Source: an uncultured Pseudomonadota bacterium (GTDB taxonomy: Bacteria; Babelota; Babeliae; Babelales; RVW-14). From it: a stretch of DNA of 64,000 bases. The stretch is taken from NCBI GenBank assembly GCA_964568625.1, contig CAZMQG010000002.1, positions 9,237 through 73,236 of the forward strand, read 5' to 3'. The position numbers and the translations under genes were made by a program. Of this stretch, positions 1 through 60,784 are shown piece by piece. The notes under the pieces were generated by a model. It searched no databases. It was given only the letters and a program-made list of their open reading frames with translations, and was not told where the DNA came from. Every line of letters starts with the position of its first letter. Positions within the stretch are counted from its first letter, which is position 1.

Positions 1-321
1 GCTCCATTTTTTTCAAGGTTTGGGTCAGGAGTGGCTCATTTGCTTGGCCCTACTGGGGGATACCTGATTGGATTTGCTGTAGCAATGCTACTAATGGTAT
101 TTTTGCGTGATTTTAAGCCGGCATCTAAAATTTGGTTGTTGATTAGCTACTGGTTTTGCTGTATTTTGTACTATACGTTTGGGTTGCTTCAGTTGAGCTG
201 TTTTGTGCCATCAAACAAAATTTTGGCGCTAGGATTGTATCCATTTATTCTTGGTGATTTTGTAATCAAAGCAATTTTCATCTTAATTTTGACAACAGCA
301 TTTTGGCGCAGAAAATTATAG
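1..321 (+). CDS. bioY: BioY biotin transporter, 5'-truncated by window edge
   Basis: Frame 1 is open from base 1 (APFFSRFGSGVAHLLGPTGGYLIGF); GPTGGYLxGF is the BioY signature; hydrophobic helices follow. Confidence 0.85.
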   Translation, partial: APFFSRFGSGVAHLLGPTGGYLIGFAVAMLLMVFLRDFKPASKIWLLISYWFCCILYYTFGLLQLSCFVPSNKILALGLYPFILGDFVIKAIFILILTTAFWRRKL

Positions 322-326
322 TAATT

Positions 327-385
327 TAGATCCTGGATCAAGTCCCCGATTTATGTACAAGGTTTTGGTGGACGTGGCAGGATGA
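327..385 (-). repeat. 59-bp palindromic REP/RPE-like element, intergenic copy
   Basis: Reverse complement aligns without gaps to 59155-59213 at 40/59 identities (14/16 and 19/23 at the two ends). Confidence 0.75.
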
Positions 386-401: not shown

Positions 402-1700
402 ATGTCTTCAAATAAAAATATGATATCCCCTTTTGTCGGTGTGCTTATATGTATAAACACCATGATTGGTGCCGGGCTTTTTATTAATGCCGCTACTCTT
501 GCCCAAAAAGCAGGGCCATGGGGATTTGTAGGATATATTGTATCGGCATTGCTTATGTTGCCATTAATTTTGAGCGTCAGTACGCTTGCGAAATTACATC
601 CTGTTTCAGGGGGATTATACGTTTTCAGTAAAAATTACATTGGTAATTGGGCTGGATTTTTTAGTGGATGGAGCTATTTTCTGGGTAAAACGGCAGCAGC
701 AGGTCTTTTGATGCATAAATTTGTTCAATTTTTTCAAGTACAATTTAGTTTTTTTAATCAATTCCCTACGTTGGCTCTTGATTATTTTGTTTTAATTTTT
801 TTAATATCAATTCATATTATTGGTGCAAGAATTGGGGGAAAACTTCAGTATTTATTTGTAACTCTTAAAATGTTGCCAATATTTTTTGTTTTTGTATTTG
901 GTTTTATTACATTTGATACGGCATTTTATCAATTTGATATAAGCGATTTTTCAAGCCTATTTTTAATTATTCCGGTATGCGTTTTTGCATCAACGGGATT
1001 TGAAATTATTTGCTCGGTTGGGCACTTAATTACAGATTCTTCGAAAAATATCAAAAGTGTTATTTTGATTGCGTTTGGTATTGTTGTGTGTATAAATACA
1101 ATATTTCAAGGGGTTATTTTTGGGGCTCTGGGATGGGCAATATCAAGTTCAGGAATTCCAATTTTGCCATTGGCTCAAAAGGCTATCCCAACATATGAAA
1201 TTATCGGAAGAATATTAAATGGCTCTGTTTATGCAGCTATTTTGGGAGCCTGTTTTTCGATATTTACTGCAAATTGCTGGAACTTGTTTACATTAGCAGA
1301 AAATAACCATCTTCCGTTTAAAAATATTCTTACAAAGCTTTCAACAAAGCAGATCCCATGGGTTGCTTTAATTGTTGAAGGTTTTATAACAGCAATCATA
1401 TTGGCAATCACAAGTGCACAGTTGCCGTTGATGAATGTGGCGGTTTTTTCGCAGCTTATTGCTATGCTTCTTAGTGCAGTTGCAGCATTTTATGCTGCCA
1501 AATCTACTATTGATTTTGGATTAAGTCGATGGGTACCTATTTTAGGAATTTGTACTGCATCTTATATTTTATTTGTGTCGTTGTTTAATATTATAAAATT
1601 TGGAATATCATTTTCTTTTTTATCAATATTCTTAATTGGAATTGCAGCGGCAATAATTAAAATGGTGCCACGCAAGTGTGACACCAATAAAATTTCTTAG
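402..1700 (+). CDS. APC-superfamily amino acid permease
   Basis: 432 aa, about 12 hydrophobic segments, TMIGAGLF in TM1, HPVSGGLYVF, GFE motif in TM6. Confidence 0.88.
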   Translation: MSSNKNMISPFVGVLICINTMIGAGLFINAATLAQKAGPWGFVGYIVSALLMLPLILSVSTLAKLHPVSGGLYVFSKNYIGNWAGFFSGWSYFLGKTAAAGLLMHKFVQFFQVQFSFFNQFPTLALDYFVLIFLISIHIIGARIGGKLQYLFVTLKMLPIFFVFVFGFITFDTAFYQFDISDFSSLFLIIPVCVFASTGFEIICSVGHLITDSSKNIKSVILIAFGIVVCINTIFQGVIFGALGWAISSSGIPILPLAQKAIPTYEIIGRILNGSVYAAILGACFSIFTANCWNLFTLAENNHLPFKNILTKLSTKQIPWVALIVEGFITAIILAITSAQLPLMNVAVFSQLIAMLLSAVAAFYAAKSTIDFGLSRWVPILGICTASYILFVSLFNIIKFGISFSFLSIFLIGIAAAIIKMVPRKCDTNKIS

Positions 1701-2656: not shown

Positions 2657-4990
2657 TTATAAACGCGATTTTAAACTTTCTAATTTTTGATTTAATTGAT
2701 TTAGTTTAGTTTTTAATTCAGTCAGGTTATTACGAAGTTGGAGAAGGGCTCCCTGAAGTTTTTCGCTTGGGTGCATCTCTATGGTGGGTTTAGCTGCAAA
2801 TAAGTCTTTTAATGCATCAGGAATATTTATTTGTCCAGGTATAGGTTTAGTAATTGGTTTACTATGGAGCTCGGATTGTGCATATTTCCCTCTGTATTGC
2901 TGAATTACTTTTGTGAAATTTTCATATAACATTGGGGCATATTTTTCTTGTTTCATTTTCTCAGATAACCCAGATTGTGCTCTTTGAGTGATTGAATAAT
3001 AAATTATGCTGTGAATGTAAACTTGATGCATTGTGATAAGGAATTTGGCAAGTTCTATGTCTATAAAGTATTTTGAATCGGAATTAAAAAGATCAAGTAA
3101 TTTGGCAAGGGCATCGTCTTTAAGTCCTAATGATGTGGGAATTGTACGCATGTATAAGTCTCGATTTTCATATATATACCAACTTTGGATTTTGTTTGAT
3201 AGATATTCGTTCAAAATTCTTTGGGCAAAAAATTCTCCTAATGTTTCAATTACTTCTAATTTACTTTTAAATTTGGTGTCAATTTGTGCTTGCATAACAG
3301 GTCTTAATTGCTCGGGTATTTCACTTAGTATTCTTGCATACAAAGCCTTTTTGTCCTGTTCGCTAAGATATGGATTTAGTAGATTTTGATAAATGCATGA
3401 TTCTATTGCGCTTAAAATCGCTTTTTCATTTCCCTTTGTCGATTTGATTTTTGTTCTCAATTTTTCCTGGATAATTTCCTTACTTTCAGGTTTAAATATA
3501 TTAAAAAAGGCAAGAATGTCTTTTTCACCATCTACTGTTCCTACGATTTCTCCGGTTATTTTCAGTATTAAATCAATTCTTTTTGACAAATAAACTCGAA
3601 GGTCTTCCATTGATGTGGACGCAATATCTCTTCCTGAAGAATCTTTTGTTAAGAAAAAATTTCTGAAAATTGATATGAAATTTTTCCAGAATTCTTGTGA
3701 ATGATCTTTGTAATAATCTGATTTAGCCTTAAAATATGTTTCGTATGACTGGCCGAGAATTTTTTTTGATTCTGGGTCATGCCAATTCCAGTCATAAAAA
3801 AGTATTAGAAATGTTGTCCATGATTCAGTTAGGGGTTCTAGTTTTTCTTGAATTTTGTTTTTTAAGCTGTTTAAAAACACTTCCATGTTTATTGGGTTTT
3901 CCAATACTTCATTTAAGCTTATTTCTTTACCACTTATTTTTTTTGCTTTTACGCATTCTGCTAGTAAATGAGCGATCAGTGTATCTGAGATAATGCCTTG
4001 AATGAATATTTTTAGAGCTTCAGATGTTGTTGGAGCTGCTATATGTTTTAGTCTTTCTTTTGCATCATTTGGGTACTGGAATTGAAAAGTTGTATTGCTT
4101 GATATTTCTATTAATTTATCTTGAATTATAGGTTTTAATTTGTTGAGTTCATCTGAAATTTCTCCATTCTTACAGGATCCTTTTTTTTCGTATTCATAAA
4201 AGTCTTCTAAAAAAGCTCTCCAAGATATTTCATGAGGCATTTTTATTTTATAATATGCTCTTATTTCGATTGGCTGTGGTTTTTCATCTAAACCAAGTTC
4301 AGAAAGTGTACTTGAGTAATCAGATATTTCTTTAAAACTTATTTTTGTAACTTCAGTTTGATCCGCAATCCCTAATTTTTTAAGGATCTCAAATCTTAAC
4401 GTTCCAATTGTTTTATTCGAAGGGATTAAAAAATTGTCAGGGATTTCTACATTGTCCAATATAACTTTAAAAGAGATGGGCTGAGGTTGAATGATGGTTA
4501 GTTCTAATGTTTTTTTATTGAATTTTACAAGTGTTTGATTGGTGCTTAATTTTTTCCCTGCAAGTGTTAATTTTTGTTCAAAATTTTTATGACCTGTGAC
4601 TCTTGAAATTAGATTTTTTAAATCTAATATTGTAATACTTGGACTTACTAAAAATTCTGCATGCGTTTTGCTTGGTAATTCTATTGTAATTATGATTTCA
4701 GTTGTTTTATTTTTGGGATATACCCAACCATTTTCAGTTTCGACGACGAAAATAGAATTTTCTTTTTTCAAATCTCCAATAAATTCTATTTTTACGGGGT
4801 CTTTTATTTTGAGTTCTTTTTTTATTGCTTGGGCAATAATATCTTGGTCTAACTTTTCGAAATTTACGTGAATTTTCCCGATTACGTGGCTATCGTTATT
4901 ATGATCTACCAGATACACCAGAGTTCCAAAACTATTTTGTATAAGCAAAAATAGAAATATAACTGAAATCACAATTGATTTTAACTTCAT
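2657..4990 (-). CDS. Secreted hypothetical protein with tandem ubiquitin-like domains and C-terminal coiled coil
   Basis: Start moved to ATG 4990 (AGGAGAG upstream); signal peptide; VSPSITILDLKNLISRVTGHKNFEQKLTLAGKKLSTNQTL resembles ubiquitin; heptad tail. Confidence 0.7.
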   Translation of the reverse strand: MKLKSIVISVIFLFLLIQNSFGTLVYLVDHNNDSHVIGKIHVNFEKLDQDIIAQAIKKELKIKDPVKIEFIGDLKKENSIFVVETENGWVYPKNKTTEIIITIELPSKTHAEFLVSPSITILDLKNLISRVTGHKNFEQKLTLAGKKLSTNQTLVKFNKKTLELTIIQPQPISFKVILDNVEIPDNFLIPSNKTIGTLRFEILKKLGIADQTEVTKISFKEISDYSSTLSELGLDEKPQPIEIRAYYKIKMPHEISWRAFLEDFYEYEKKGSCKNGEISDELNKLKPIIQDKLIEISSNTTFQFQYPNDAKERLKHIAAPTTSEALKIFIQGIISDTLIAHLLAECVKAKKISGKEISLNEVLENPINMEVFLNSLKNKIQEKLEPLTESWTTFLILFYDWNWHDPESKKILGQSYETYFKAKSDYYKDHSQEFWKNFISIFRNFFLTKDSSGRDIASTSMEDLRVYLSKRIDLILKITGEIVGTVDGEKDILAFFNIFKPESKEIIQEKLRTKIKSTKGNEKAILSAIESCIYQNLLNPYLSEQDKKALYARILSEIPEQLRPVMQAQIDTKFKSKLEVIETLGEFFAQRILNEYLSNKIQSWYIYENRDLYMRTIPTSLGLKDDALAKLLDLFNSDSKYFIDIELAKFLITMHQVYIHSIIYYSITQRAQSGLSEKMKQEKYAPMLYENFTKVIQQYRGKYAQSELHSKPITKPIPGQINIPDALKDLFAAKPTIEMHPSEKLQGALLQLRNNLTELKTKLNQLNQKLESLKSRL

Positions 4991-5014
4991 CACAACTCTC
5001 CTTTTCACAAACAT

Positions 5015-6655
5015 TTAAAACTCTATTTTTTCTCCGGTCATTTCTTTAGGTTGTTGTAACCCTATAAAATTTAATATAGTCGGTGCAATACTTGAGATGC
5101 CAAATTTTGGTTTGATTGACCAGCTCTCTTCTTGCTTGCTTTGCATATCTTTTGATACAAGAATAAAAGGCACCGGATTTTGGGTATGTGCCGTAAGAGG
5201 GGTGCCGGTTACAGGATCTATCTTTTCTTCGGCATTACCGTGATCCGCTGCAATAAACATTGTCCCATTCATTTTTTCAACAACAACTTTGTACAGTTGT
5301 TCAAGTTGCTTGTCCAAGTATTCACAGGCCTTAACCGTTGCATTAAAATCTCCGGAGTGGCCAACCATGTCGGCGTTGGCATAATTAATCAGATAAAAAT
5401 CTGCTGGTTCTGTCTTTAACGAGTTTAAAACAGTTTCTGTTATTTCGTTTGCACGCATTTCAGGAGAATTGATATAGTTTTCGGTTTTGATGGATGGAAT
5501 TAAAACCCGTGTTTCATTTGGTGCTTGGTGATCTTGCATTCCGTGGAAAAAGTAGGTTACGTGGGCATATTTTTCAGTTTCAGCGATTATAAATATTTTG
5601 CGGATTTTATTATCAGGGGTTGTTTTTTCTGCCAGTACGTCCAGTATGGTGTTTGTTATCTTTTCGCGTTCAAATAAAACGTCATTGTTAAATTTTGTAA
5701 AATCTTGATTATACCTGGTTGGTGTTATGAAGAATGCAAGTTCGTGATTTGTGCTACACAGCTTTTGCACTTTGAATTTGTCGAAATTTGGGTTAATAAA
5801 GCTTTCTGTTATTTGTTGTGCGCGGTCAGGTCGGAAATTGAAAAACACAATTCCATCGCCGAATTTAATAAAGCCATTTGGCTCAATAAGTGTAGGCTTG
5901 ACGAATTCGTCAGTTATCCCTGCAGTATATGCCCGGTTGATAATAGTTTGCCAAGTGGTGGACGTAGAAAATTGAATTGCAGAGTTGCTCTGGAATTGTT
6001 GAAGGTGGTCTTTAACATGAACCGCTGGGTTTGAGCCAATTAGCATATCATAATATTGCTTAGTTCTATCCCAATTATTATCTCGGTCCATGGCATAAAA
6101 TCGACCTGCTACGCTTGCAATTTTGCCACAGTTTAGCTTTTTACATTCGTCTTCTAAGCTATTGAGATAAATTGAAGCGCTTTTGGGTGCTACATCTCTA
6201 CCGTCAAGAATTACGTGTATAAATACATTAGTAAGCCCAGATTTTTTTGCCAATTTTAAAAAGGCGTATAGGTGAGACTCGTGGCTATGTACTCCCCCGT
6301 CTGAGAGTAGGCCTATAAGATGAAGTGCTTTATCTGTCTTTTTTATTTTATTAAAATTGTTTATTAACATTTTATTTTCAAAGAAATCACCGGATGTAAT
6401 TTCATCATGAAATTTTTTAAGAGCAGATTCAACAACGCGACCGGAGCCTATTGTTAGGTGGCCGACTTCCGAGTTTCCGATGTATCCTGGGGGCAACCCA
6501 ACATATTCGCCTGAGGCATTCAGCAGAGTGTGTGGGTAATTTTGTGTTATCCAATTCCAAAAAGGCATTTTGGCATGCGCTACCGCATTACCTTGCGATT
6601 TGAGGCTGTGGCCGAACCCGTCAAGAATTACAAGCATTATTGGGGATTTATTCAT
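5015..6655 (-). CDS. gpmI: 2,3-bisphosphoglycerate-independent phosphoglycerate mutase
   Basis: ILDGFG, GNSEVGH, LSDGGVHSH, GRFYAMDRDNNWDR, AETEKYAHVTYFF, NADMVGHSG, ADHGNAE motifs. Confidence 0.97.
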   Translation of the reverse strand: MNKSPIMLVILDGFGHSLKSQGNAVAHAKMPFWNWITQNYPHTLLNASGEYVGLPPGYIGNSEVGHLTIGSGRVVESALKKFHDEITSGDFFENKMLINNFNKIKKTDKALHLIGLLSDGGVHSHESHLYAFLKLAKKSGLTNVFIHVILDGRDVAPKSASIYLNSLEDECKKLNCGKIASVAGRFYAMDRDNNWDRTKQYYDMLIGSNPAVHVKDHLQQFQSNSAIQFSTSTTWQTIINRAYTAGITDEFVKPTLIEPNGFIKFGDGIVFFNFRPDRAQQITESFINPNFDKFKVQKLCSTNHELAFFITPTRYNQDFTKFNNDVLFEREKITNTILDVLAEKTTPDNKIRKIFIIAETEKYAHVTYFFHGMQDHQAPNETRVLIPSIKTENYINSPEMRANEITETVLNSLKTEPADFYLINYANADMVGHSGDFNATVKACEYLDKQLEQLYKVVVEKMNGTMFIAADHGNAEEKIDPVTGTPLTAHTQNPVPFILVSKDMQSKQEESWSIKPKFGISSIAPTILNFIGLQQPKEMTGEKIEF

Positions 6656-10815: not shown

Positions 10816-13308
10816 ATGATAGTTAAAAGTAAAAAAATATTAACTTTGGTTTTCTCGATATCAAGCCTATTTTTTTTGGCTTCAAATTTTGTTTCACTAA
10901 ACGCTGAATCAGAGCAAGGTGTACAAGGCAATCTGTCTGATTCTGACGATTTAAATTCTGACAATTTGGCAGATTTGAACTCTGAGGAAAAAAAGCCGAA
11001 CAAGGTAATTAATCAAATTATTGTTAAGGGGAATAAAAACGTTGGAACCCCTGTTATTTTAAATAGAATTCCATATAAAGTTGGAGATGTTTTTGATCAG
11101 GGCAAAAGTGCTGACGCAATCAATAATTTGTGTGATCTGGGCTATTTTAGGCAAGTACAGCTTGAAGGTGAAAATGTTTCCCCGGAATCAATGAATTTGA
11201 TTGTTATTGTAGAAGAGAAAAAATTGATTGAAAAAGTGGAGTTTAATGGGAATAAGGTTGTTACAACTAAAAAGTTAAGAGAGACCTTAAATGTTGATAA
11301 AATCAACACTATTGATGAAATATCAGCTCAAAAATTGATCAAAGAGATAAAAAAGGCTTATAAAGAGGAAAATAGGCATAAGCTTAATATAGATTTTGAT
11401 CTTCTTCCAAGTAAAGACAATGCGGATAAAGTTATCTTGTTGTTTAAGATTAATGAAGGTCCAAAGTCCTTAGTCAAAAGAGTGTATTTTTCCGGAAATA
11501 AAAATATTCCTGATCGTAAATTGCGAAAAGTTGTTTTTACGAGAGAAGATTGGTTGCTTAGCTTTTCTGATGGGGCAGGGACTTATGACGAAGAGGCTGT
11601 GGAAATAGATAAGCATCGTATTGAATACTTTTATCGTGACAATGGATATTTGCAAGCAAAGGTCTATAAAAGTAAAATTGATTTTTCTAGAAATGAAAAA
11701 GATGTTACCGTAATTTTTTATATTAAAGAAGGCTCTCAGTTTATCGTTCGGGATATTCGAGCTCCCGGAGATGAAATTTATGGAGAAAGTGAGCTTATGC
11801 CATTGATTAGCCTTGAATCAGGTAAACCCTTTTCGCAGGCAAAGCTTGTCGAGTCTATTAACTTAATTCGAGAATTGTGGGGGAAAAAAGGATATATCTA
11901 TGCTGATGTTTATCCTCAGATAAAGCCCGATGAAGAAAATAATGTTGTTGATGTAACTTTTAATGTTGAGCGTGGCAATAGGATGTATGTCAATAAGATT
12001 GATATTACCGGTAACAAGTACACTCATGATAAAGTTATTCGTCGTCAACTGGATGTTTATGAGGGTGATCTTATAACAAGTAAAAATATGCGTAGATCGA
12101 AGAATCAGGTAGAATATCTTGGTTACTTTGAGCGGGGTGGAGTGGATTGGAAAATTCACCGCATCACAGATGATTTGGCTGATCTTGAGATGATTGTTCA
12201 GGAAGCCAAAACTGGAAATGCAAATGTAGCATTGAGTTATGGTAGTGATAAAATAACACCACAACCGTCGCTTCACGGATCCGTAAATGTTCAAAAAAAT
12301 AATTTATTTGGACTTGGATATAATACAAGTGCCATGGTTCAGGCAAGCAGGCATCATTTACAAAGGTTAGAGGGAAGCTTTGAAGATTCCCATATTTTTG
12401 ATACCAATATTTACGGGTTTGTAAATCCATACTGGCATTGGATGGAATATAGCCAGTGGGGAAGGTCTGTTGATCGCAGTCCAATACAAAAAATTGCCGG
12501 TTTTGATTTACGGCTTGGTTTTCCTTTGACCAGTATTGATAAGCGGTTGCAGGTGGTTGTTGACATGGGGTATGAACATATTAGAAATAATAATCCAAAA
12601 GCTCTTAATGATAGGGTTCGCCCAATTGTTGACAGAACATTTCAAGCTGGTGATTTAACTTGGATTGGACTTGATTTTATTAAGGATACTCGTAACCATA
12701 AAGTTTATCCAAGTGATGGTTATAAGATTATTTTATCTACAAGACTTGCTCCAACAAAAATTAATAACAATTTTGGTTTTTTCAAAGCTGAATTGGATGC
12801 CAGTTGGTATTATGCTTTAATCGGACAAGATTCGCTTGTTCTTGCAATGCGTGCCAGGGGCGGTCGAGTTAGTGATTTAAGTAATAAAACCATCCCATAT
12901 AAAGAACTTTATCAAATGGGTGGGCAGGATACGGTCAGAGGTTTTTTATGGGGTGGCGTTGGTCCTGCTTGGAAACCTAGCGATGCGCCACTTGGTGCAA
13001 GAAATGCCGTTTTATTTGGAACAGAGTTAATATTCCCACTGATTGCAGATTATTCAATGAAGGGACATGTTTTCTACGATGCAGGTTGTGGATGGAGTAC
13101 CCCGCCAATTACACTTAAAGATGATGTGTATAATATTAACGATTATATAGTACGAAATAAATTTGATTTACGACATTCTATTGGATTTGGTGTAAATTTG
13201 GTTAATCCGTTCCCCGCCAAAATCGATTGGGGTTTCAAGCTTGATCGTAAAAAGAACATGGGCGAATCTCCTTACGAATTCCATCTGAGTATGAATTACG
13301 CCTGGTAG
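10816..13308 (+). CDS. bamA: Outer membrane protein assembly factor BamA
   Basis: Multiple POTRA repeats (GNKNV, GNKVV, GNKNI, GNKYT), GGQDTVRGF motif, C-terminal MNYAW. Confidence 0.95.
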   Translation: MIVKSKKILTLVFSISSLFFLASNFVSLNAESEQGVQGNLSDSDDLNSDNLADLNSEEKKPNKVINQIIVKGNKNVGTPVILNRIPYKVGDVFDQGKSADAINNLCDLGYFRQVQLEGENVSPESMNLIVIVEEKKLIEKVEFNGNKVVTTKKLRETLNVDKINTIDEISAQKLIKEIKKAYKEENRHKLNIDFDLLPSKDNADKVILLFKINEGPKSLVKRVYFSGNKNIPDRKLRKVVFTREDWLLSFSDGAGTYDEEAVEIDKHRIEYFYRDNGYLQAKVYKSKIDFSRNEKDVTVIFYIKEGSQFIVRDIRAPGDEIYGESELMPLISLESGKPFSQAKLVESINLIRELWGKKGYIYADVYPQIKPDEENNVVDVTFNVERGNRMYVNKIDITGNKYTHDKVIRRQLDVYEGDLITSKNMRRSKNQVEYLGYFERGGVDWKIHRITDDLADLEMIVQEAKTGNANVALSYGSDKITPQPSLHGSVNVQKNNLFGLGYNTSAMVQASRHHLQRLEGSFEDSHIFDTNIYGFVNPYWHWMEYSQWGRSVDRSPIQKIAGFDLRLGFPLTSIDKRLQVVVDMGYEHIRNNNPKALNDRVRPIVDRTFQAGDLTWIGLDFIKDTRNHKVYPSDGYKIILSTRLAPTKINNNFGFFKAELDASWYYALIGQDSLVLAMRARGGRVSDLSNKTIPYKELYQMGGQDTVRGFLWGGVGPAWKPSDAPLGARNAVLFGTELIFPLIADYSMKGHVFYDAGCGWSTPPITLKDDVYNINDYIVRNKFDLRHSIGFGVNLVNPFPAKIDWGFKLDRKKNMGESPYEFHLSMNYAW

Positions 13309-13393: not shown

Positions 13394-14221
13394 GTGATGC
13401 TCAATTTTTTTTATAAAAATTTCATGGGAAGACTTATACGTCTTCCCATGACTTATGTATGGTTTTCTCAATTTGGTGGTGCATTTGCAGATTCAAGCAT
13501 AAGTCGATATTTTATTAAATCATTTATTAAACGTAACAAAATAGACATGTCTGATTATATTGTTCCTGAAGGTGGGTATAAAACTTTTAATGAATTTTTT
13601 TATCGCAAATTAAAACCAAATAGAAGAATCATCGATTCAGATTCAAATTCAATTATCTCTCCTGCTGACAGCAAACTTTTAGTAATTCCGGAGATAAATA
13701 TTCAAACGTATTTTTTTGTTAAAGCTTGCAAGTTTGATCTTGAAAGTTTTTTGCAAGATCAAGATTTGGCAAATGAATTTTCTGGGGGAACCCTTTTTCT
13801 TTTTAGGCTTGCTCCCGAAAATTATCATCGTTTTCATTTTCCATTTGATTGTGTTGCAAGTTTGCCACATAGAATTAAGGGTAAGTTTGAATCGGTAAAT
13901 CCGGTAGTTTATAAATCAGGCATTCAGCCATTGACTGAAAACGAACGTCATTTGATTGTTTTAGATTCGGAAAAATTTGGCAAAGTTCTTTTTGTTCCGG
14001 TTGGGGCAATGCTTGTTGGCAAGGTTGTTGAAACTTACGATCCGAAAAAATTTAATAAAAAAGGCGATGAAGTTGGATTCTTTGCATTTGGAGGTTCAAG
14101 CATTGTTATGGTATTCAAAAAAGGTGCAGTGATTCCTGATGAAACTTTTATCCAAAATTCTTTACATGATAGAGAGTCTGCAGTTAGGATGGGACATAAA
14201 ATAAATAAGTTTATTGATTAA
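13394..14221 (+). CDS. psd: Phosphatidylserine decarboxylase proenzyme
   Basis: FNEFFYRKLK, ISPADSK, RLAPENYHRFHFP, FGGSSIV autocleavage motif. Confidence 0.93.
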   Translation: MMLNFFYKNFMGRLIRLPMTYVWFSQFGGAFADSSISRYFIKSFIKRNKIDMSDYIVPEGGYKTFNEFFYRKLKPNRRIIDSDSNSIISPADSKLLVIPEINIQTYFFVKACKFDLESFLQDQDLANEFSGGTLFLFRLAPENYHRFHFPFDCVASLPHRIKGKFESVNPVVYKSGIQPLTENERHLIVLDSEKFGKVLFVPVGAMLVGKVVETYDPKKFNKKGDEVGFFAFGGSSIVMVFKKGAVIPDETFIQNSLHDRESAVRMGHKINKFID

Positions 14222-53794: not shown

Positions 53795-54589
53795 ATGAAA
53801 AATATAATAGTAATTCCAGCCAGATTTGGGTCATCTCGTCTTCCCGGCAAGCCTCTAGCCCAAATTAATGGGCATAGCTTACTTTATCGTGTGTGGATGC
53901 TTGCAAAAAGGGCACAAAATATCGATGAAGTTTTTATTGCGACTGATGATCAGAGAATTCAAAAACATGCGCAGGATTTTGGAGCACAAGTTTTAATGAC
54001 CGATCCAAATTATCCAACTGGTACGGATCGAATTTATGGTGCGGTTGAACAGTTATCTCAAAAACCTGAAATAATAATAAATATGCAAGGTGATGCTGTT
54101 TTGACTCCGCCATGGATTATTCAAAGTTTGATTGATGCGCTTGTTAATGATTCAAATGTGAAAATGGCTACGCTGGCTAATCAATTGAGCTGGCCGCAGT
54201 ATGATGAGCTTGTTAAGTCGAAGGCTAACAGCAAGAGCAGTGGGACAACTGTTACTTTTGATAAAAATAACGATGCCCTATATTTTTCCAAAAACATAAT
54301 TCCATACGTAAGAAACAGAAATGATCAAGATTTAATGTCCCCAGTATTCAAACACATTGGAATGTATGGGTATCGCTATGATGCTCTTAAAAAATTTGTT
54401 AACTTACCGCAATCTCCACTAGAAAAAGTAGAAAGTTTAGAGCAGCTTAGAATGCTTGAAAACGGTATTAAAATAAAAGTTGCCATCGTGGATGCAAAAG
54501 GTCGCACCATGTGGAGCGTTGACAGCCCTGAGGATGTAAAAAAAGTTGAAGAAATTATAGAGCGAGAGGGGGAATTACTTCCCCTTTAA
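53795..54589 (+). CDS. kdsB: 3-deoxy-manno-octulosonate cytidylyltransferase (CMP-Kdo synthetase)
   Basis: IPARFGSSRLPGKPL, VFIATDD, TGTDRI, NMQGD, ALYFSK, HIGMYGY, ESLEQLRMLENG. Confidence 0.93.
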   Translation: MKNIIVIPARFGSSRLPGKPLAQINGHSLLYRVWMLAKRAQNIDEVFIATDDQRIQKHAQDFGAQVLMTDPNYPTGTDRIYGAVEQLSQKPEIIINMQGDAVLTPPWIIQSLIDALVNDSNVKMATLANQLSWPQYDELVKSKANSKSSGTTVTFDKNNDALYFSKNIIPYVRNRNDQDLMSPVFKHIGMYGYRYDALKKFVNLPQSPLEKVESLEQLRMLENGIKIKVAIVDAKGRTMWSVDSPEDVKKVEEIIEREGELLPL

Positions 54590-56616: not shown

Positions 56617-57228
56617 TGCCGGCTGTAATATAGCGAGAGTTTGGGCTACGCTTTTGACCGTTGCCCCTGTTGTAAAAAGATCATCGATTATAACGATATT
56701 TTTATCTTTTATTGGATTATTAAATATAAAATTCTTCTTTATAGAAAATGCCGTTTCAACATTTTTTTGTCGCTGATTTGGACTTAATCTGGATTGGAAA
56801 ATTGTTCTATGTTTTCTTTTAACGATATTAATTATTGGGATATCAAGTTTTTTGCTCAATTGTTTTGCAATTAAATCGGCTTGGTTATAACCCCTCCACG
56901 CGAATCTGGACCAATGTAATGGAACCGGAATTAAAAAATCTGCTTTAATCGTTTCGAATGGAACAAAATCAATTATCAAATTTGCAAGTTGTTTGCATGC
57001 AAGAGTGTCATACGAAAATTTTTTTAAGATAAGAGATTTTACAGGATCATCATATGCGCATGCTGCGTAAATGGGTAGGATATATTTTTTTGTTGTTCGG
57101 AGAAAAACGGGTACGACCGGTTTTATTTTACTTTGGCATGCAAAACAAAAAGTTTGTTCTTGATCAATAATGGAAGAGCATGATTGGCAAAACGATGGAT
57201 AAATCAGCCGCAATAAACTGTTTAACAT
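56581..57228 (-). CDS. comF: ComF-family phosphoribosyltransferase-like protein
   Basis: CQSC...CFAC Zn finger, PVPLHWSRFAWRGYNQA, IIDDLFTTGAT. Confidence 0.9.
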   Translation of the reverse strand: MLNSLLRLIYPSFCQSCSSIIDQEQTFCFACQSKIKPVVPVFLRTTKKYILPIYAACAYDDPVKSLILKKFSYDTLACKQLANLIIDFVPFETIKADFLIPVPLHWSRFAWRGYNQADLIAKQLSKKLDIPIINIVKRKHRTIFQSRLSPNQRQKNVETAFSIKKNFIFNNPIKDKNIVIIDDLFTTGATVKSVAQTLAILQPASISIAVACRTI

Positions 57229-57335
57229 AATATCATAAAGTTAAAGTAAATTATTCTAAATTTTAACATTCAAATAGTAACATGACTAAGTTTTTATGCA
57301 ATAAATTAAATATAAAATTTTTTTAAAAAAATTAC

Positions 57336-58801: not shown

Positions 58802-60784
58802 ATGAACAAAATTAAAGTTCTGGCTTTTGATCAGGCACAAAAGATTGCAGCCGGAGAGGTTATAGAACGTCCTGTTAACGTTGTCAAAGAAGTTATTGAA
58901 AATTCTATTGATGCCGGAGCTACTCAAGTTTACTTGTATATAGAAAAAGCTGGCAAACAACTTATTCGCGTTGTGGATAATGGTTGCGGTATGTCTGTGA
59001 CTGATGCAAAAAATTGCTTCTTGTCACATGCTACCAGCAAAATATCTAATATCGATGAGCTTGAGACTATTGATTCGTATGGGTTTAGAGGAGAGGCTCT
59101 TGCCAGCATTAGCGCAATTAGCAAAATAAAATTAATTACGCGACCTACCATTTGTCATCCTGCCGTGTCCGCCATAGCTGAAAGCGAAGGCCGGGAACTT
59201 GAGTCAGGATCTATTTTGCCACAAGAAAATGCGTCACTTGGTGTTGAGATAGAGTATGAAAATTCAAGATTAATTTCGGAAAAATCTATTTCGTGTAATT
59301 TTGGAACTGATCTTCAAATTCATGACCTGTTTTATAATATTCCCGTGCGTAAGAAATTTTTGAAGCAAGATGAAACTGAGTGGAATCAGGTGCAGACACT
59401 TTTTTATGCTTTCTGTCTGAGTCACTTAAAAATTCACTTTAAGCTTTATAATGATGGGAAGCTTGTTTTAAATGCTCCTCCTGTTAATAGTATTCAGGAT
59501 AGAATAACGCAAATTTGGGATCACAATTTTTCACAAAATTTAATTGAGTTAGGGGCCAAGCCCAATAATAACTTATTACAAGCTGATGCTTCTCAGGAGC
59601 AGTCTAATGATTTGTTACCGGGCTGGATTAAGTTCAGAGGTTGTATATCTAACCACAATTTTTGGCGTTATGGTCGAACTCATATATTTTTTTTCGTTAA
59701 CAATCGTTGGGTAAAAAACCCAGAACTTTCTAAGGGTTTGCTAAAGGGTTATCTAAATGTTTTGCCCCATGATAAATTTCCGGCAGCGTTTATTTTTATT
59801 GATATAGACAAGACTCTTGTTGATATTAATTGCCATCCAAAAAAAGAAGAGGTTAGGTTTTTAAAACCCCTTACAGTTCAAAATATGTTACAAGAAATTG
59901 TAAAAAGTACATTGGCACAAAATCTATCAAAGCAGATTTTGCCGGGCTTTATAGGGCAAAATTTTGCAATACAAGATGTTGGTAGTCAAAATTCTACTCA
60001 AAATATTGAGCACGAACATAAAACCGAAAATTTACACACACAAGCTTTTTTGGAACAGCCAAATTTTCATAGACGACAAAACTTTTTTGGCCCTATTGTG
60101 GAGTCTTATTTAGAACCTTCACAAAGACAAACGAATTTGCCGGTTTATGGACAATCTTCTGTCACTGTTAACGTGAGCCAAACTCAAGCTGTTCAACCTG
60201 AGGTGCAGGCATACAAAATTATTGGACAACTTTTTAAAACATATATTTTAATCGAAAATAAAGATAATTTTGTGATCATTGATCAGCATGCGGCTCATGA
60301 ACGAATAATTTATGAAAATTTATTAAAGAATTTTGAGCATAAACAGGGAATAAGACTTTTGTTTCCTGAAATTTTAAATCTTACAGAACAACAAATTAAA
60401 TCTTTGCTTGAGTGTAAAGATTTTTTTAGTGAGCAGGGTATTGATTTTGAAGTGATCGGTAAAAATGATATTTCCATAAAAACCAGTCCGCCAAAAATTT
60501 CGAAAACATCTTTAAAAGAGCTTTTCATGCATGCTATAGAATTTATTCAGGAAAACGAGAAGCTTGATAAAGAGATTTTTCGTAAAAAACTTAATGAACA
60601 TATGCATTCACAAATTTCTTGTAAATCTGCTGTTAAGGCAGGAGATGAATTGACGTTTGCACAGATGCGGCAATTAATTGATGATCTTAATAAATGCGAA
60701 AATCGTATTATTTGCGTTCATGGCCGTCCCACAACATGGATTGTTAGCAAATTTGAAGTCGAGAAGAATTTTAAGCGTCGTTAA
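58802..60784 (+). CDS. mutL: DNA mismatch repair protein MutL
   Basis: KIAAGEVIERP, KEVIENSIDAGA, DNGCGM, HATSKI, GFRGEALASI, DQHAAHERI, CVHGRPT. Confidence 0.97.
   Translation: MNKIKVLAFDQAQKIAAGEVIERPVNVVKEVIENSIDAGATQVYLYIEKAGKQLIRVVDNGCGMSVTDAKNCFLSHATSKISNIDELETIDSYGFRGEALASISAISKIKLITRPTICHPAVSAIAESEGRELESGSILPQENASLGVEIEYENSRLISEKSISCNFGTDLQIHDLFYNIPVRKKFLKQDETEWNQVQTLFYAFCLSHLKIHFKLYNDGKLVLNAPPVNSIQDRITQIWDHNFSQNLIELGAKPNNNLLQADASQEQSNDLLPGWIKFRGCISNHNFWRYGRTHIFFFVNNRWVKNPELSKGLLKGYLNVLPHDKFPAAFIFIDIDKTLVDINCHPKKEEVRFLKPLTVQNMLQEIVKSTLAQNLSKQILPGFIGQNFAIQDVGSQNSTQNIEHEHKTENLHTQAFLEQPNFHRRQNFFGPIVESYLEPSQRQTNLPVYGQSSVTVNVSQTQAVQPEVQAYKIIGQLFKTYILIENKDNFVIIDQHAAHERIIYENLLKNFEHKQGIRLLFPEILNLTEQQIKSLLECKDFFSEQGIDFEVIGKNDISIKTSPPKISKTSLKELFMHAIEFIQENEKLDKEIFRKKLNEHMHSQISCKSAVKAGDELTFAQMRQLIDDLNKCENRIICVHGRPTTWIVSKFEVEKNFKRR
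59155..59213 (+). repeat. 59-bp palindromic element inserted in frame within mutL
   Basis: tcatcctgccgtgtccgccatagctgaaagcgaaggccgggaacttgagtcaggatcta aligns to the reverse complement of 327-385; lies within CHPAVSAIAESEGRELESGS. Confidence 0.8.

What the first reader, a model, noticed from the sequence alone, without database searches (positions are those of the whole stretch)
59140..59216. Palindromic DNA element inserted in frame in the MutL ATPase domain
After GFRGEALASI...LITR, MutL carries about 25 extra residues (PTICHPAVSAIAESEGRELESGSIL) where canonical MutL has only a short linker. The core 59 nt match the reverse complement of the intergenic element at 327-385 with equal length and 40/59 identity. 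It appears nested: an outer gtcatcctg/caggatc palindrome (CHP...ELESGS) split by an inner ccgccatagc...gcgaaggccgg hairpin. Established: Rickettsia palindromic elements insert in frame into housekeeping genes. Inference: the same process operates here, in a mismatch-repair gene, with possible effects on mutation and recombination rates.
Basis: partly seen in the sequence, partly recalled or inferred. Interest (0 to 1): 0.72.

Follow-up and report, generated by a model that had tools for sequence, protein, structure and literature searches.

The report
Nested hairpin repeat inside mutL gene
A small mobile hairpin repeat, of a kind already known from Rickettsia, Neisseria and many other bacteria, has landed in frame inside the mismatch-repair gene mutL of an uncultivated Dependentiae (TM6) bacterium, adding a 24-residue loop that the protein appears to tolerate.

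Summary
MutL (58802-60784) carries 26 codons (59144-59221) where its closest relatives without the element have two. The 59-nt core matches the reverse complement of 327-385 at 40/59 positions; the next best match in the window is 30/59.

The insert is nested. The outer part is a TGTC-tagged hairpin (ATCCTGAA / CTTGA / TTCAGGAT / CCA), which also occurs alone in related genomes and across many phyla. A second, 33-nt TGTC-tagged GC-rich hairpin splits it.

The outer hairpin meets the published definition of CGTC-tagged REPs (Di Nocera 2013), the superfamily that includes Rickettsia RPE-4 and RPE-6 and Neisseria dRS3. The same hairpin brackets small GIY-YIG "Ssn" nuclease genes, an association published by Chenal in 2025 and reproduced here.

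Syntenic filled and empty sites show recent mobility. Other Dependentiae carry independent in-frame copies in MutL, PriA, SufS and a ComF-like gene.

The RPE analogy holds. No evidence supports an effect on mutation rate: all MutL motifs are intact, the site is a permissive loop, and the insert has outlasted a speciation.

Verdict: a new member of a known kind, of moderate interest.

The parts
58802..60784 (+). mutL gene (660 aa). It encodes a GHKL ATPase N-domain, a disordered linker and a C-terminal endonuclease domain with DQHAAHERIIYE.
   Evidence: ORF. Pfam PF13589/PF02518/PF01119/PF08676 and Dependentiae MutL homologues. Solved MutL N-domains match at E about 1e-52, with the alignment broken at the insert.
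59144..59221 (+). Inserted segment: codons 115-140 (PTICHPAVSAIAESEGRELESGSILP). These 78 nt replace the two codons (L-N) of the empty allele, a net gain of 24 aa.
   Evidence: Protein alignment. DNA alignment with L001 (filled) and L002 (empty). L203 is empty.
59153..59162 (+). Outer hairpin: TGTC tag (59153-59156) and the first 6 nt of the left arm, ATCCTG (59157-59162).
   Evidence: Compared with the solo form GTC|ATCCTGAA|CTTGA|TTCAGGAT|CCA.
59163..59195 (+). Inner nested element, 33 nt and GC-rich: CCGTGTCCGCCATAGCTGAAAGCGAAGGCCGGG. It is a second TGTC-tagged imperfect hairpin (CCGCCATAGC / loop / GCGAAGGCCGG).
   Evidence: The same insert sits at the same position of the outer hairpin in L001, L002 (twice), L024, L034 and L203. 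Solo relatives with stem covariation occur in L070, L059, L114 and L173.
59196..59213 (+). Rest of the outer hairpin: AA (end of left arm), loop CTTGA (59198-59202), right arm GTCAGGAT (59203-59210) and tail CTA (59211-59213).
327..385 (-). Second composite copy, with the same termini and length and a diverged AT-richer centre. It lies in the 80-nt spacer between ORF 31..321 and the permease-like ORF 402..1700.
   Evidence: 40/59 identity; ORF context.

Best explanation
The extra MutL segment is a composite of two short tagged hairpin repeats.

The outer unit is a CGTC/TGTC-tagged REP: tag, an 8-bp stem starting with AT, the 5-nt loop CTTGA, and a CCA-like tail. It belongs to the superfamily that contains Rickettsia RPE-4 and RPE-6 and Neisseria dRS3/NTS. 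In other genomes the very same hairpin forms the inverted ends of tiny cassettes encoding a roughly 95-aa GIY-YIG 'Ssn' single-strand nuclease. The inner unit is a second TGTC-tagged GC-rich hairpin, always found inserted after ATCCTG of the outer one.

Shown: the composite entered mutL in the common ancestor of the window organism and GCA_043808975, after the split from the GCA_000315315 lineage. It landed in the turn between two beta strands of the ATPase domain. Only one of its six reading frames is open, and that is the frame in which it persists, so it is simply translated into a 24-residue surface loop.

Inferred: it spreads as non-autonomous DNA through a single-stranded hairpin intermediate, helped by an Ssn-type nuclease encoded elsewhere in the genome (about 0.4 likely). 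Copies inside genes survive only where the frame is open and the protein tolerates a loop. For MutL the insert is a tolerated passenger, not a functional module.
For: Identity and insertion.
- Filled versus empty alleles are seen at protein and DNA level.
- The second window copy matches at 40/59, against 30/59 for the next best match.
- Further composite copies occur at non-orthologous sites: the L002 mutL linker, L002:4547, L024:6165, L034:6482-6520 and L203:19074.
- Solo outer hairpins are present or absent at syntenic sites among window, L001 and L002.
- The paralogous window and L002-linker copies differ at 2 of 54 nt, although the genes are only 84% identical (and sequences).

Family.
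- A genome-collection scan gave 119 or more stretches from many phyla. About 110 of 125 matches carry the full (C/T)GTCATCCTGAACTTGATTCAGGATC(C/T)AT.
- The published Ssn/SRM association was reproduced. Of 63 metagenome loci chosen only by GIY-YIG similarity, 36 have a GTCAT hairpin upstream, 37 have an inverted one downstream, and 27 have both. The wrong-orientation controls gave 6 and 13.
- The ATCCTGAA hairpin itself brackets GIY-YIG genes in L048, L093, L037, L133 and L189.
- A whole cassette is an indel between L001 and L002/window.

Tolerance.
- Only one open frame exists (reading of the sequence), and all coding copies give the same CHP...SG peptide.
- In the AlphaFold model the insert lies between strands 108-114 and 147-153, with pLDDT 57-80.
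- Independent insertions occupy the same loop in P0052/L122, and the loop is also longer in P0075, P0035 and P0017.
- In-frame copies occur in PriA, SufS and a ComF-like gene.
- The insert is fixed in four runs.
Against: - No ssn (GIY-YIG) gene lies in the 64-kb window, so a cognate nuclease for this genome is not shown.
- The published degenerate SRM search pattern does not match this hairpin.
- GIY-YIG nucleases cut but are not known to join DNA, so how copies are pasted is unknown. Chenal et al. only hypothesise an IS-like past.
- No clear target-site duplication could be defined in the AT-rich flanks.
- The window is not REP-rich: 7 GTCA-anchored hairpins against 4.4 in shuffles, and only two family copies.
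- Synonymous sites of the insert are more conserved than those of the rest of the gene: 22/23 against 76%, p about 0.02. This hints at a DNA-level constraint or gene conversion and is not explained by pure neutrality.
Confidence: 0.8

Rival explanations
1. This is the same repeat family, but it spreads without any Ssn nuclease. Candidate routes are hairpin-promoted template switching or slippage during replication, gene conversion between copies, or another transposase acting in trans. On this view the Ssn genes merely sit between such hairpins or use them as regulatory or target sites.
For: Di Nocera et al. found no dedicated transposase for CGTC REPs. There is no ssn gene in the window. GIY-YIG enzymes have no known strand-transfer activity, and Chenal et al. 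show cleavage and an effect on transformation, not transposition. The SRM pattern is not matched.
Against: There is a strong orientation-specific association of GTCAT hairpins with both ends of ssn-like genes. A whole hairpin-ssn-hairpin unit behaves as an indel between close relatives. The identical ATCCTGAA hairpin flanks ssn genes in several phyla.
Confidence: 0.35
2. The insert has been co-opted. The extra loop, or the hairpin in the DNA or mRNA, now modulates MutL. It could alter ATPase-driven dimerisation or expression, and so change mutation or recombination rates.
For: The insert is retained across a speciation, with synonymous sites more conserved than in the rest of the gene. mutL is hit repeatedly in Dependentiae. 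Di Nocera et al. note REPs in many repair genes and speculate on mutators.
Against: The loop has modest model confidence and no conserved structure. Three of its 26 residues changed between the two carriers, about the same rate as the whole protein. The same peptide occurs in unrelated proteins and in the disordered MutL linker. Relatives function without it. The recurrence is as well explained by permissive loops.
Confidence: 0.1
3. This is an ordinary lineage-specific loop expansion, or an assembly artefact, and the resemblance to 327-385 is coincidental.
For: Dependentiae MutLs vary in length at this loop.
Against: The match is 40/59 against a background maximum of 30/59. Near-identical DNA occurs at many other loci and genomes. 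The insert is present in six independent assemblies.
Confidence: 0.01
4. The segment is an intervening sequence, such as a mini-intein or an intron-like RNA, that is removed, so the mature MutL lacks it.
For: None was found beyond its position inside a conserved domain.
Against: It is 26 codons, far too short for an intein and without intein motifs. No Rfam family matches. No skipped junction appears in contigs of runs labelled RNA-Seq, though contigs are weak evidence. The open frame is maintained in all coding copies.
Confidence: 0.01

Closest known systems
CGTC-tagged REP superfamily (Di Nocera, De Gregorio & Rocco 2013, BMC Genomics 14:522). It includes Neisseria dRS3 and Rickettsia RPE-4 and RPE-6.
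   Same: It has an unpaired (C/T)GTC tag, an 8-bp stem starting with AT, a 5-nt loop and a CCA-like tail. Copies are dispersed, occur as head-to-head pairs, and are found inside genes in frame, notably in replication and repair genes.
   Different: The host phylum (Dependentiae) and the host gene (mutL) are not in that survey. Here one tagged hairpin is nested inside another, and the composite recurs at several loci. The inner hairpin does not start with AT and has two conserved mismatches, so it fits none of the four described families.
Ssn-related motifs (SRM/NTS) and Ssn GIY-YIG ssDNA nucleases (Chenal et al. 2025, Nat Commun 16:2388)
   Same: These are GTCAT-tagged directional hairpins that flank small single-domain GIY-YIG genes on both sides in inverted orientation. 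The very hairpin in MutL does so in other genomes. The distribution spans many phyla and is rich in symbionts.
   Different: The published degenerate SRM pattern does not match this stem (tested). No ssn gene lies in the window. In Neisseria only 2% of NTS lie within genes, whereas here about half of the copies seen in Dependentiae loci do. Cleavage was not tested.
Rickettsia palindromic elements, RPE-1 in particular (Ogata et al. 2000, 2002; from my own knowledge and as cited)
   Same: It is selfish palindromic DNA inserted in frame into housekeeping genes of an obligate intracellular bacterium, translated as surface loops and tolerated.
   Different: RPE-1 is 100-150 bp and Rickettsia-specific. 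This element is 59-78 nt, belongs to the short CGTC type, and is in a different phylum.
Small dispersed repeats (SDR) of heterocystous cyanobacteria (Elhai et al. 2008; from my own knowledge)
   Same: They are very small hairpin repeats that insert into one another and into genes.
   Different: There is no sequence relation, no CGTC tag, and no known nuclease partner.

Membership tests
CGTC-tagged REP superfamily | Unpaired CGTC (or TGTC/CCTC) motif at one end | tested here: met
   TGTC at 59153-59156. CGTC or TGTC precedes the stem in about 110 of 125 copies from the genome collection. Definition.
CGTC-tagged REP superfamily | Stem of 8-9 bp with complementary A-T in the first and second positions | tested here: met
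   The solo form is ATCCTGAA/TTCAGGAT, 8 bp and perfect. In the window copy the nested insert leaves ATCCTG/CAGGAT paired.
CGTC-tagged REP superfamily | Loop of 4-5 nt and a 3-nt tail near CCA | tested here: met
   The loop is CTTGA. The tail is CCA in most copies and CTA in the window copy.
CGTC-tagged REP superfamily | Many dispersed copies per genome, often as head-to-head dimers | tested here: inconclusive
   Dispersed copies and one head-to-head pair (L001:9269-9329) were seen, and L122 has tail-to-tail pairs. Only 22-64 kb per genome could be read, so copy number per genome is unknown. The window has two copies.
Ssn-related motif (SRM) | Flanks ssn (cd10448 GIY-YIG) genes, typically on both sides | tested here: met
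   The ATCCTGAA hairpin brackets GIY-YIG genes in L048, L093, L037, L133 and L189. Of 63 GIY-YIG loci, 27 have GTCAT hairpins on both sides. This is not seen in the window itself.
Ssn-related motif (SRM) | Matches the published search pattern HGTCWYN(0-2)YYVSBRHN(0-5)WNVSBRGN(0-2)RNCYNB | tested here: not met
   The regex finds the NTS control but not the solo hairpin, either window copy or the inner element. It has 0 hits in the window.
Ssn-related motif (SRM) | Cut as single-stranded DNA just upstream of the hairpin by its cognate Ssn | not testable with these tools
   This needs a nuclease assay.
Rickettsia palindromic elements | In-frame insertion in conserved genes that leaves the ORF intact, with empty sites in relatives | tested here: met
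Rickettsia palindromic elements | Sequence similarity to an RPE consensus (RPE-1 to RPE-8) | not tested
   No RPE consensus was compared. The link rests on Di Nocera's assignment of RPE-4 and RPE-6 to the CGTC superfamily.
MITE | Terminal inverted repeats plus a target-site duplication | tested here: inconclusive
   The arms are inverted repeats. The flanks are AT-rich, and no consistent duplication could be defined at five filled/empty pairs.
MutL (host gene) | GHKL ATPase motifs, the DNA_mis_repair domain, and a MutL_C domain with the DQHA(X)2E(X)4E endonuclease motif | tested here: met
   Pfam domains. Invariant E30, N34, D59, G61, G63, GFRGEAL and DQHAAHER 494-501. PDB MutL matches.

The most novel reading that the evidence does not exclude
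The two-hairpin composite may be a self-propagating unit whose inner hairpin targets a fixed position of the outer one. Tagged hairpins might also land or persist preferentially in genes of DNA repair and replication: at least three independent mutL events besides this one, plus priA. One cause could be that mobilisation runs through the single-stranded DNA these proteins handle. Another could be that loop insertions tune repair, giving intracellular Dependentiae a reversible way to change mutation rate.
Probability: 0.1. Interest if true: 0.7.

Novelty: new member of a known kind. Interest (0 to 1): 0.4.

Why it matters
This extends the 'selfish DNA inside protein-coding genes' phenomenon from Rickettsia and a few Proteobacteria to Dependentiae, another lineage of obligate intracellular bacteria. 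It links the phenomenon to a repeat superfamily for which a partner nuclease (Ssn) was found only in 2025.

For annotation, the peptides CHPELDSGS, NQVQDD and SAIAESEGR in Dependentiae proteins mark repeat insertions, not lineage-specific domains.

For evolution, mutL offers a natural series of filled and empty alleles at two permissive loops. That series could be used to date insertions and to test whether such loops affect repair.

The nesting of one tagged hairpin at a fixed position of another may say something about how these elements choose targets.

Tried and rejected
- **Rfam.** A gathering-threshold search over the window and seven loci found no family for either hairpin, only a tRNA in L024.
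- **Folding.** The composite is not more stable than shuffled sequence, so 'strong palindrome' was dropped for the composite.
- **Pattern scan.** A right-end pattern was used instead.
- **Literature.**
  - Full-text searches for the hairpin sequence and its peptides found nothing relevant.
  - 'Dependentiae' with 'palindromic' found nothing relevant.
  - 'GIY-YIG' with 'Rickettsia palindromic' gave no paper.
- **GIY-YIG link.** I first took the link between GIY-YIG genes and these hairpins for a new finding. Chenal et al. 2025 had published it.
- **Peptide searches.** These were meant to count coding copies across databases.
  - A 30-aa phmmer search against 1.84 billion representatives found nothing.
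- **Target-site duplication.** Five filled/empty pairs were examined and the result is ambiguous in AT-rich flanks.
- **Excision variants.** None were seen in sequencing runs, but only contigs were available, and these cannot show rare variants.
- **Intein, intron and artefact readings.** All were rejected (see rivals).
- **Error.** One script compared the paralogous copies with a one-base offset and printed 17/57. The correct count, read from the printed sequences, is 2 differences in 54.
Full report
**What is there**

The window is AT-rich (about 35% G+C). It comes from an uncultivated Dependentiae (TM6/Babeliales-like) bacterium found in sludge and wastewater metagenomes. MutL is encoded at 58802-60784.

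In an alignment of 20 Dependentiae MutLs, only the window protein and its closest relative P0002 (85% identical) carry PTICHPAVSAIAESEGRELESGSILP after the strand ...KLITR. Seven relatives at 70-78% identity, and all more distant ones, read LITR-LNQEN.

At DNA level, 78 nt (59144-59221, codons 115-140) replace the six bases CTAAAT (L002) or TTAAAT (L203). The net gain is 72 nt. The segment has about 60% G+C.

Its 59-nt core (59155-59213) matches the reverse complement of 327-385 at 40 of 59 positions without a gap. Both ends are identical and the centre has diverged. No other place in the window exceeds 30/59. The two end motifs are expected 0.20 and 0.14 times by chance.

The copy at 327-385 lies in an 80-nt spacer between two genes of the same direction. 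Contigs of four independent runs span the MutL insert without indel, and the identical protein is encoded on two further assemblies.

**Anatomy**

- **Outer unit.** It occurs alone as TTTTGTC|ATCCTGAA|CTTGA|TTCAGGAT|CCATGG. This is a perfect 8-bp hairpin with a 5-nt loop, preceded by a TGTC tag. One copy carries a compensatory stem change, ATGCTGAA/TTCAGCAT.
- **Composite.** A 33-nt GC-rich piece (59163-59195) sits between ATCCTG and AACTTGA.
- **Recurrence.** The same piece, at the same position, is found in:
  - the MutL ATPase copy of L001;
  - the MutL linker of L002;
  - intergenic L002:4547, L024:6165, L034:6482-6520 and L203:19074.

  The two L002 copies carry a second such piece in the other arm.
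- **Inner unit.** It is itself a TGTC-tagged hairpin (CCGCCATAGC / loop / GCGACGGCGG) with two conserved mismatches. It shows stem covariation (CCGCC/GGCGG, CAGCC/GGCTG, CCGTC/GACGG). Solo relatives occur in proteobacterial and other contigs.
- **Stability.** With the outer stem interrupted, the composite folds no better than shuffled sequence.

**Mobility**

Among the syntenic loci of the window, L001 and L002, copies are present or absent at five further sites.

| Site | Context | State in the other loci |
|---|---|---|
| L002:7822 | Inside a ComF-like phosphoribosyltransferase gene (+39 nt, 227 vs 214 aa) | Empty in L001 and window |
| L002:8366 | Intergenic | Empty in window; L001 has a different insert |
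| L002:15904 | Intergenic | Empty in L001 |
| L001:9180-9335 | Intergenic | Empty in L002 and window |
| L002:4547 | Intergenic | Empty in L001 and window |

The window MutL copy and the L002 linker copy differ at 2 of 54 bases, although the two genes are 84% identical in DNA (sequences). No consistent target-site duplication could be defined.

**Coding copies**

The composite has one open frame of six (read). Every coding copy uses it and gives CHPAVSAIAE[SR]EGREL[DE]SG.

- **MutL.**
  - The disordered linker carries the composite in P0003 and P0004. It carries the solo hairpin in P0002 and P0007 and a remnant in P0005.
  - A distant MutL (P0052/L122) carries two solo hairpins in opposite orientations in the same ATPase loop, and two more in its linker.
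  - P0075, P0035 and P0017 have other expansions of that loop.
  - P0014 carries the peptide of a sibling hairpin.
- **Other genes.** In a Babeliales MAG the hairpin is in frame in a class-V aminotransferase (SufS-like) and, as a composite, in PriA.

About half of the roughly 20 copies seen in Dependentiae loci lie in long open frames.

**The MutL loop**

The AlphaFold model (84-sequence alignment, mean pLDDT 80, pTM 0.77) places the insert between strands 108-114 and 147-153. It has a short helix and pLDDT of 57-80. The ATPase motifs and the endonuclease motif DQHAAHER are intact. Alignments to solved MutL N-domains break exactly at the insert.

Between the two carriers, 3 of 26 residues changed, much as in the rest of the protein. 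Synonymous codons are more often identical in the insert (22/23 against 76%, p about 0.02). This may reflect a constraint on the DNA, or gene conversion.

**What family**

About 110 of 125 matches carry the whole hairpin (C/T)GTCATCCTGAACTTGATTCAGGATC(C/T)AT. They come from:

- Alpha- and Gammaproteobacteria;
- Bacteroidota;
- Patescibacteria;
- Melainabacteria;
- Armatimonadota;
- Campylobacterota;
- Rickettsiales;
- Babeliales;
- other groups.

Di Nocera et al. 2013 define CGTC-tagged REPs by the following features:

- a tag that is often TGTC;
- an 8-9-bp stem starting with AT;
- a 4-5-nt loop;
- a CCA tail.

The outer hairpin meets each point. They assign Neisseria dRS3 and Rickettsia RPE-4 and RPE-6 to this superfamily. 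They report intragenic copies concentrated in replication and repair genes and speculate on mutators. They found no dedicated transposase. mutL and Dependentiae are not in their survey.

**Partner gene**

I noticed roughly 95-aa GIY-YIG genes bracketed by inverted copies of these hairpins, including the exact ATCCTGAA hairpin (L048, L093, L037). In L001 a whole cassette is absent from L002 and the window.

I then tested 63 metagenome loci chosen only by GIY-YIG similarity. Of these, 36 have a GTCAT hairpin within 130 nt upstream, 37 have an inverted one downstream, and 27 have both. Wrong-orientation controls gave 6 and 13.

This reproduces Chenal et al. 2025. They name the proteins Ssn and show that they cut single-stranded DNA next to their hairpins (NTS/SRM). 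They report 71% of homologues with a motif nearby and 42% with motifs on both sides, and they note the IS-like architecture.

Their degenerate SRM pattern does not match this particular stem. No ssn gene lies in the window.

**Verdict**

The element is a nested pair of CGTC/TGTC-tagged REP hairpins, inserted in frame, translated, and tolerated in a permissive MutL loop. It was inherited by two lineages.

- **Known kind:** RPE-like and REP insertions in genes, and the Ssn-associated hairpins.
- **New here:** the phylum, the gene, the recurrent use of two MutL loops, and the nested composite that recurs at several loci.
- **Inferred:** how copies are pasted, and whether an Ssn helps.
- **Unsupported:** an effect on mutation rate.

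Noticed in passing
window 29143-53393: Six tandem paralogous giant genes (1082-1634 aa) are built from dozens of 138-nt (46-aa) repeats (SWSPDG..FIAVVN..LQVFSF). The syntenic genes in L001 and L002 hit beta-propeller/lactonase Pfam families.
   Followed up: partly
L001:5100-5480 (empty site in window at 54576/54578): A 100-aa GIY-YIG (Ssn-like) gene is bracketed by inverted GCGCTCACCCTGAGCTTGTCGAAGGGT hairpins. It is present in L001 and absent from L002 and the window. A solo copy of that hairpin is at L001:21339-21368.
   Followed up: yes
L122:10454-10523 and 11426-11495: A distant Dependentiae MutL (P0052, 757 aa) carries two pairs of solo hairpins in opposite orientation. One pair is in the same ATPase loop and one is in the linker. 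All four hairpins found in that 22-kb locus are inside mutL.
   Followed up: partly
L023:130-153 and L024:914-937: In a Babeliales MAG the hairpin is in frame in PriA (with a reversed inner element, peptide TPAVAKAVAGRQDAPLCHPELDSGSI). It is also in frame in a SufS-like class-V aminotransferase (FCHPELDSGSI).
   Followed up: partly
L002:7822-7860 (empty site in window near 56727): A solo hairpin adds 13 residues to a ComF-like double-zinc-ribbon phosphoribosyltransferase in L002 only.
   Followed up: yes
L001:8195-8270 and L002:8366-8400 (empty site in window near 57231): The same intergenic point holds a solo hairpin in L002 and a different, unrelated-looking 75-nt insert in L001, which suggests an insertion hot spot.
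   Followed up: no
window 13424-13452 (-): A perfect 10-bp GTC-tagged hairpin starting with AT (GTC|ATGGGAAGAC|gtataa|GTCTTCCCAT) lies at the start of ORF 13394..14221. It may be another tagged REP type.
   Followed up: no
window 58849-59083: Contigs of three runs (X2, X3, X7) share nine substitutions in the first 280 nt of mutL and none from 59084 to 59600. This points to a second strain, or a recombination boundary just upstream of the insert.
   Followed up: no
L203:600-1305 and 2690-5297: Relative to the window's gene order, this relative has gained a Gp49/HTH (HigB/HigA-like) pair and several ankyrin-repeat genes.
   Followed up: no
L002 (GCA_000315315.2, contig AMWB02009348): This Dependentiae contig is number 9348 of a very large assembly. 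It may be a symbiont or contaminant within another organism's genome project.
   Followed up: no
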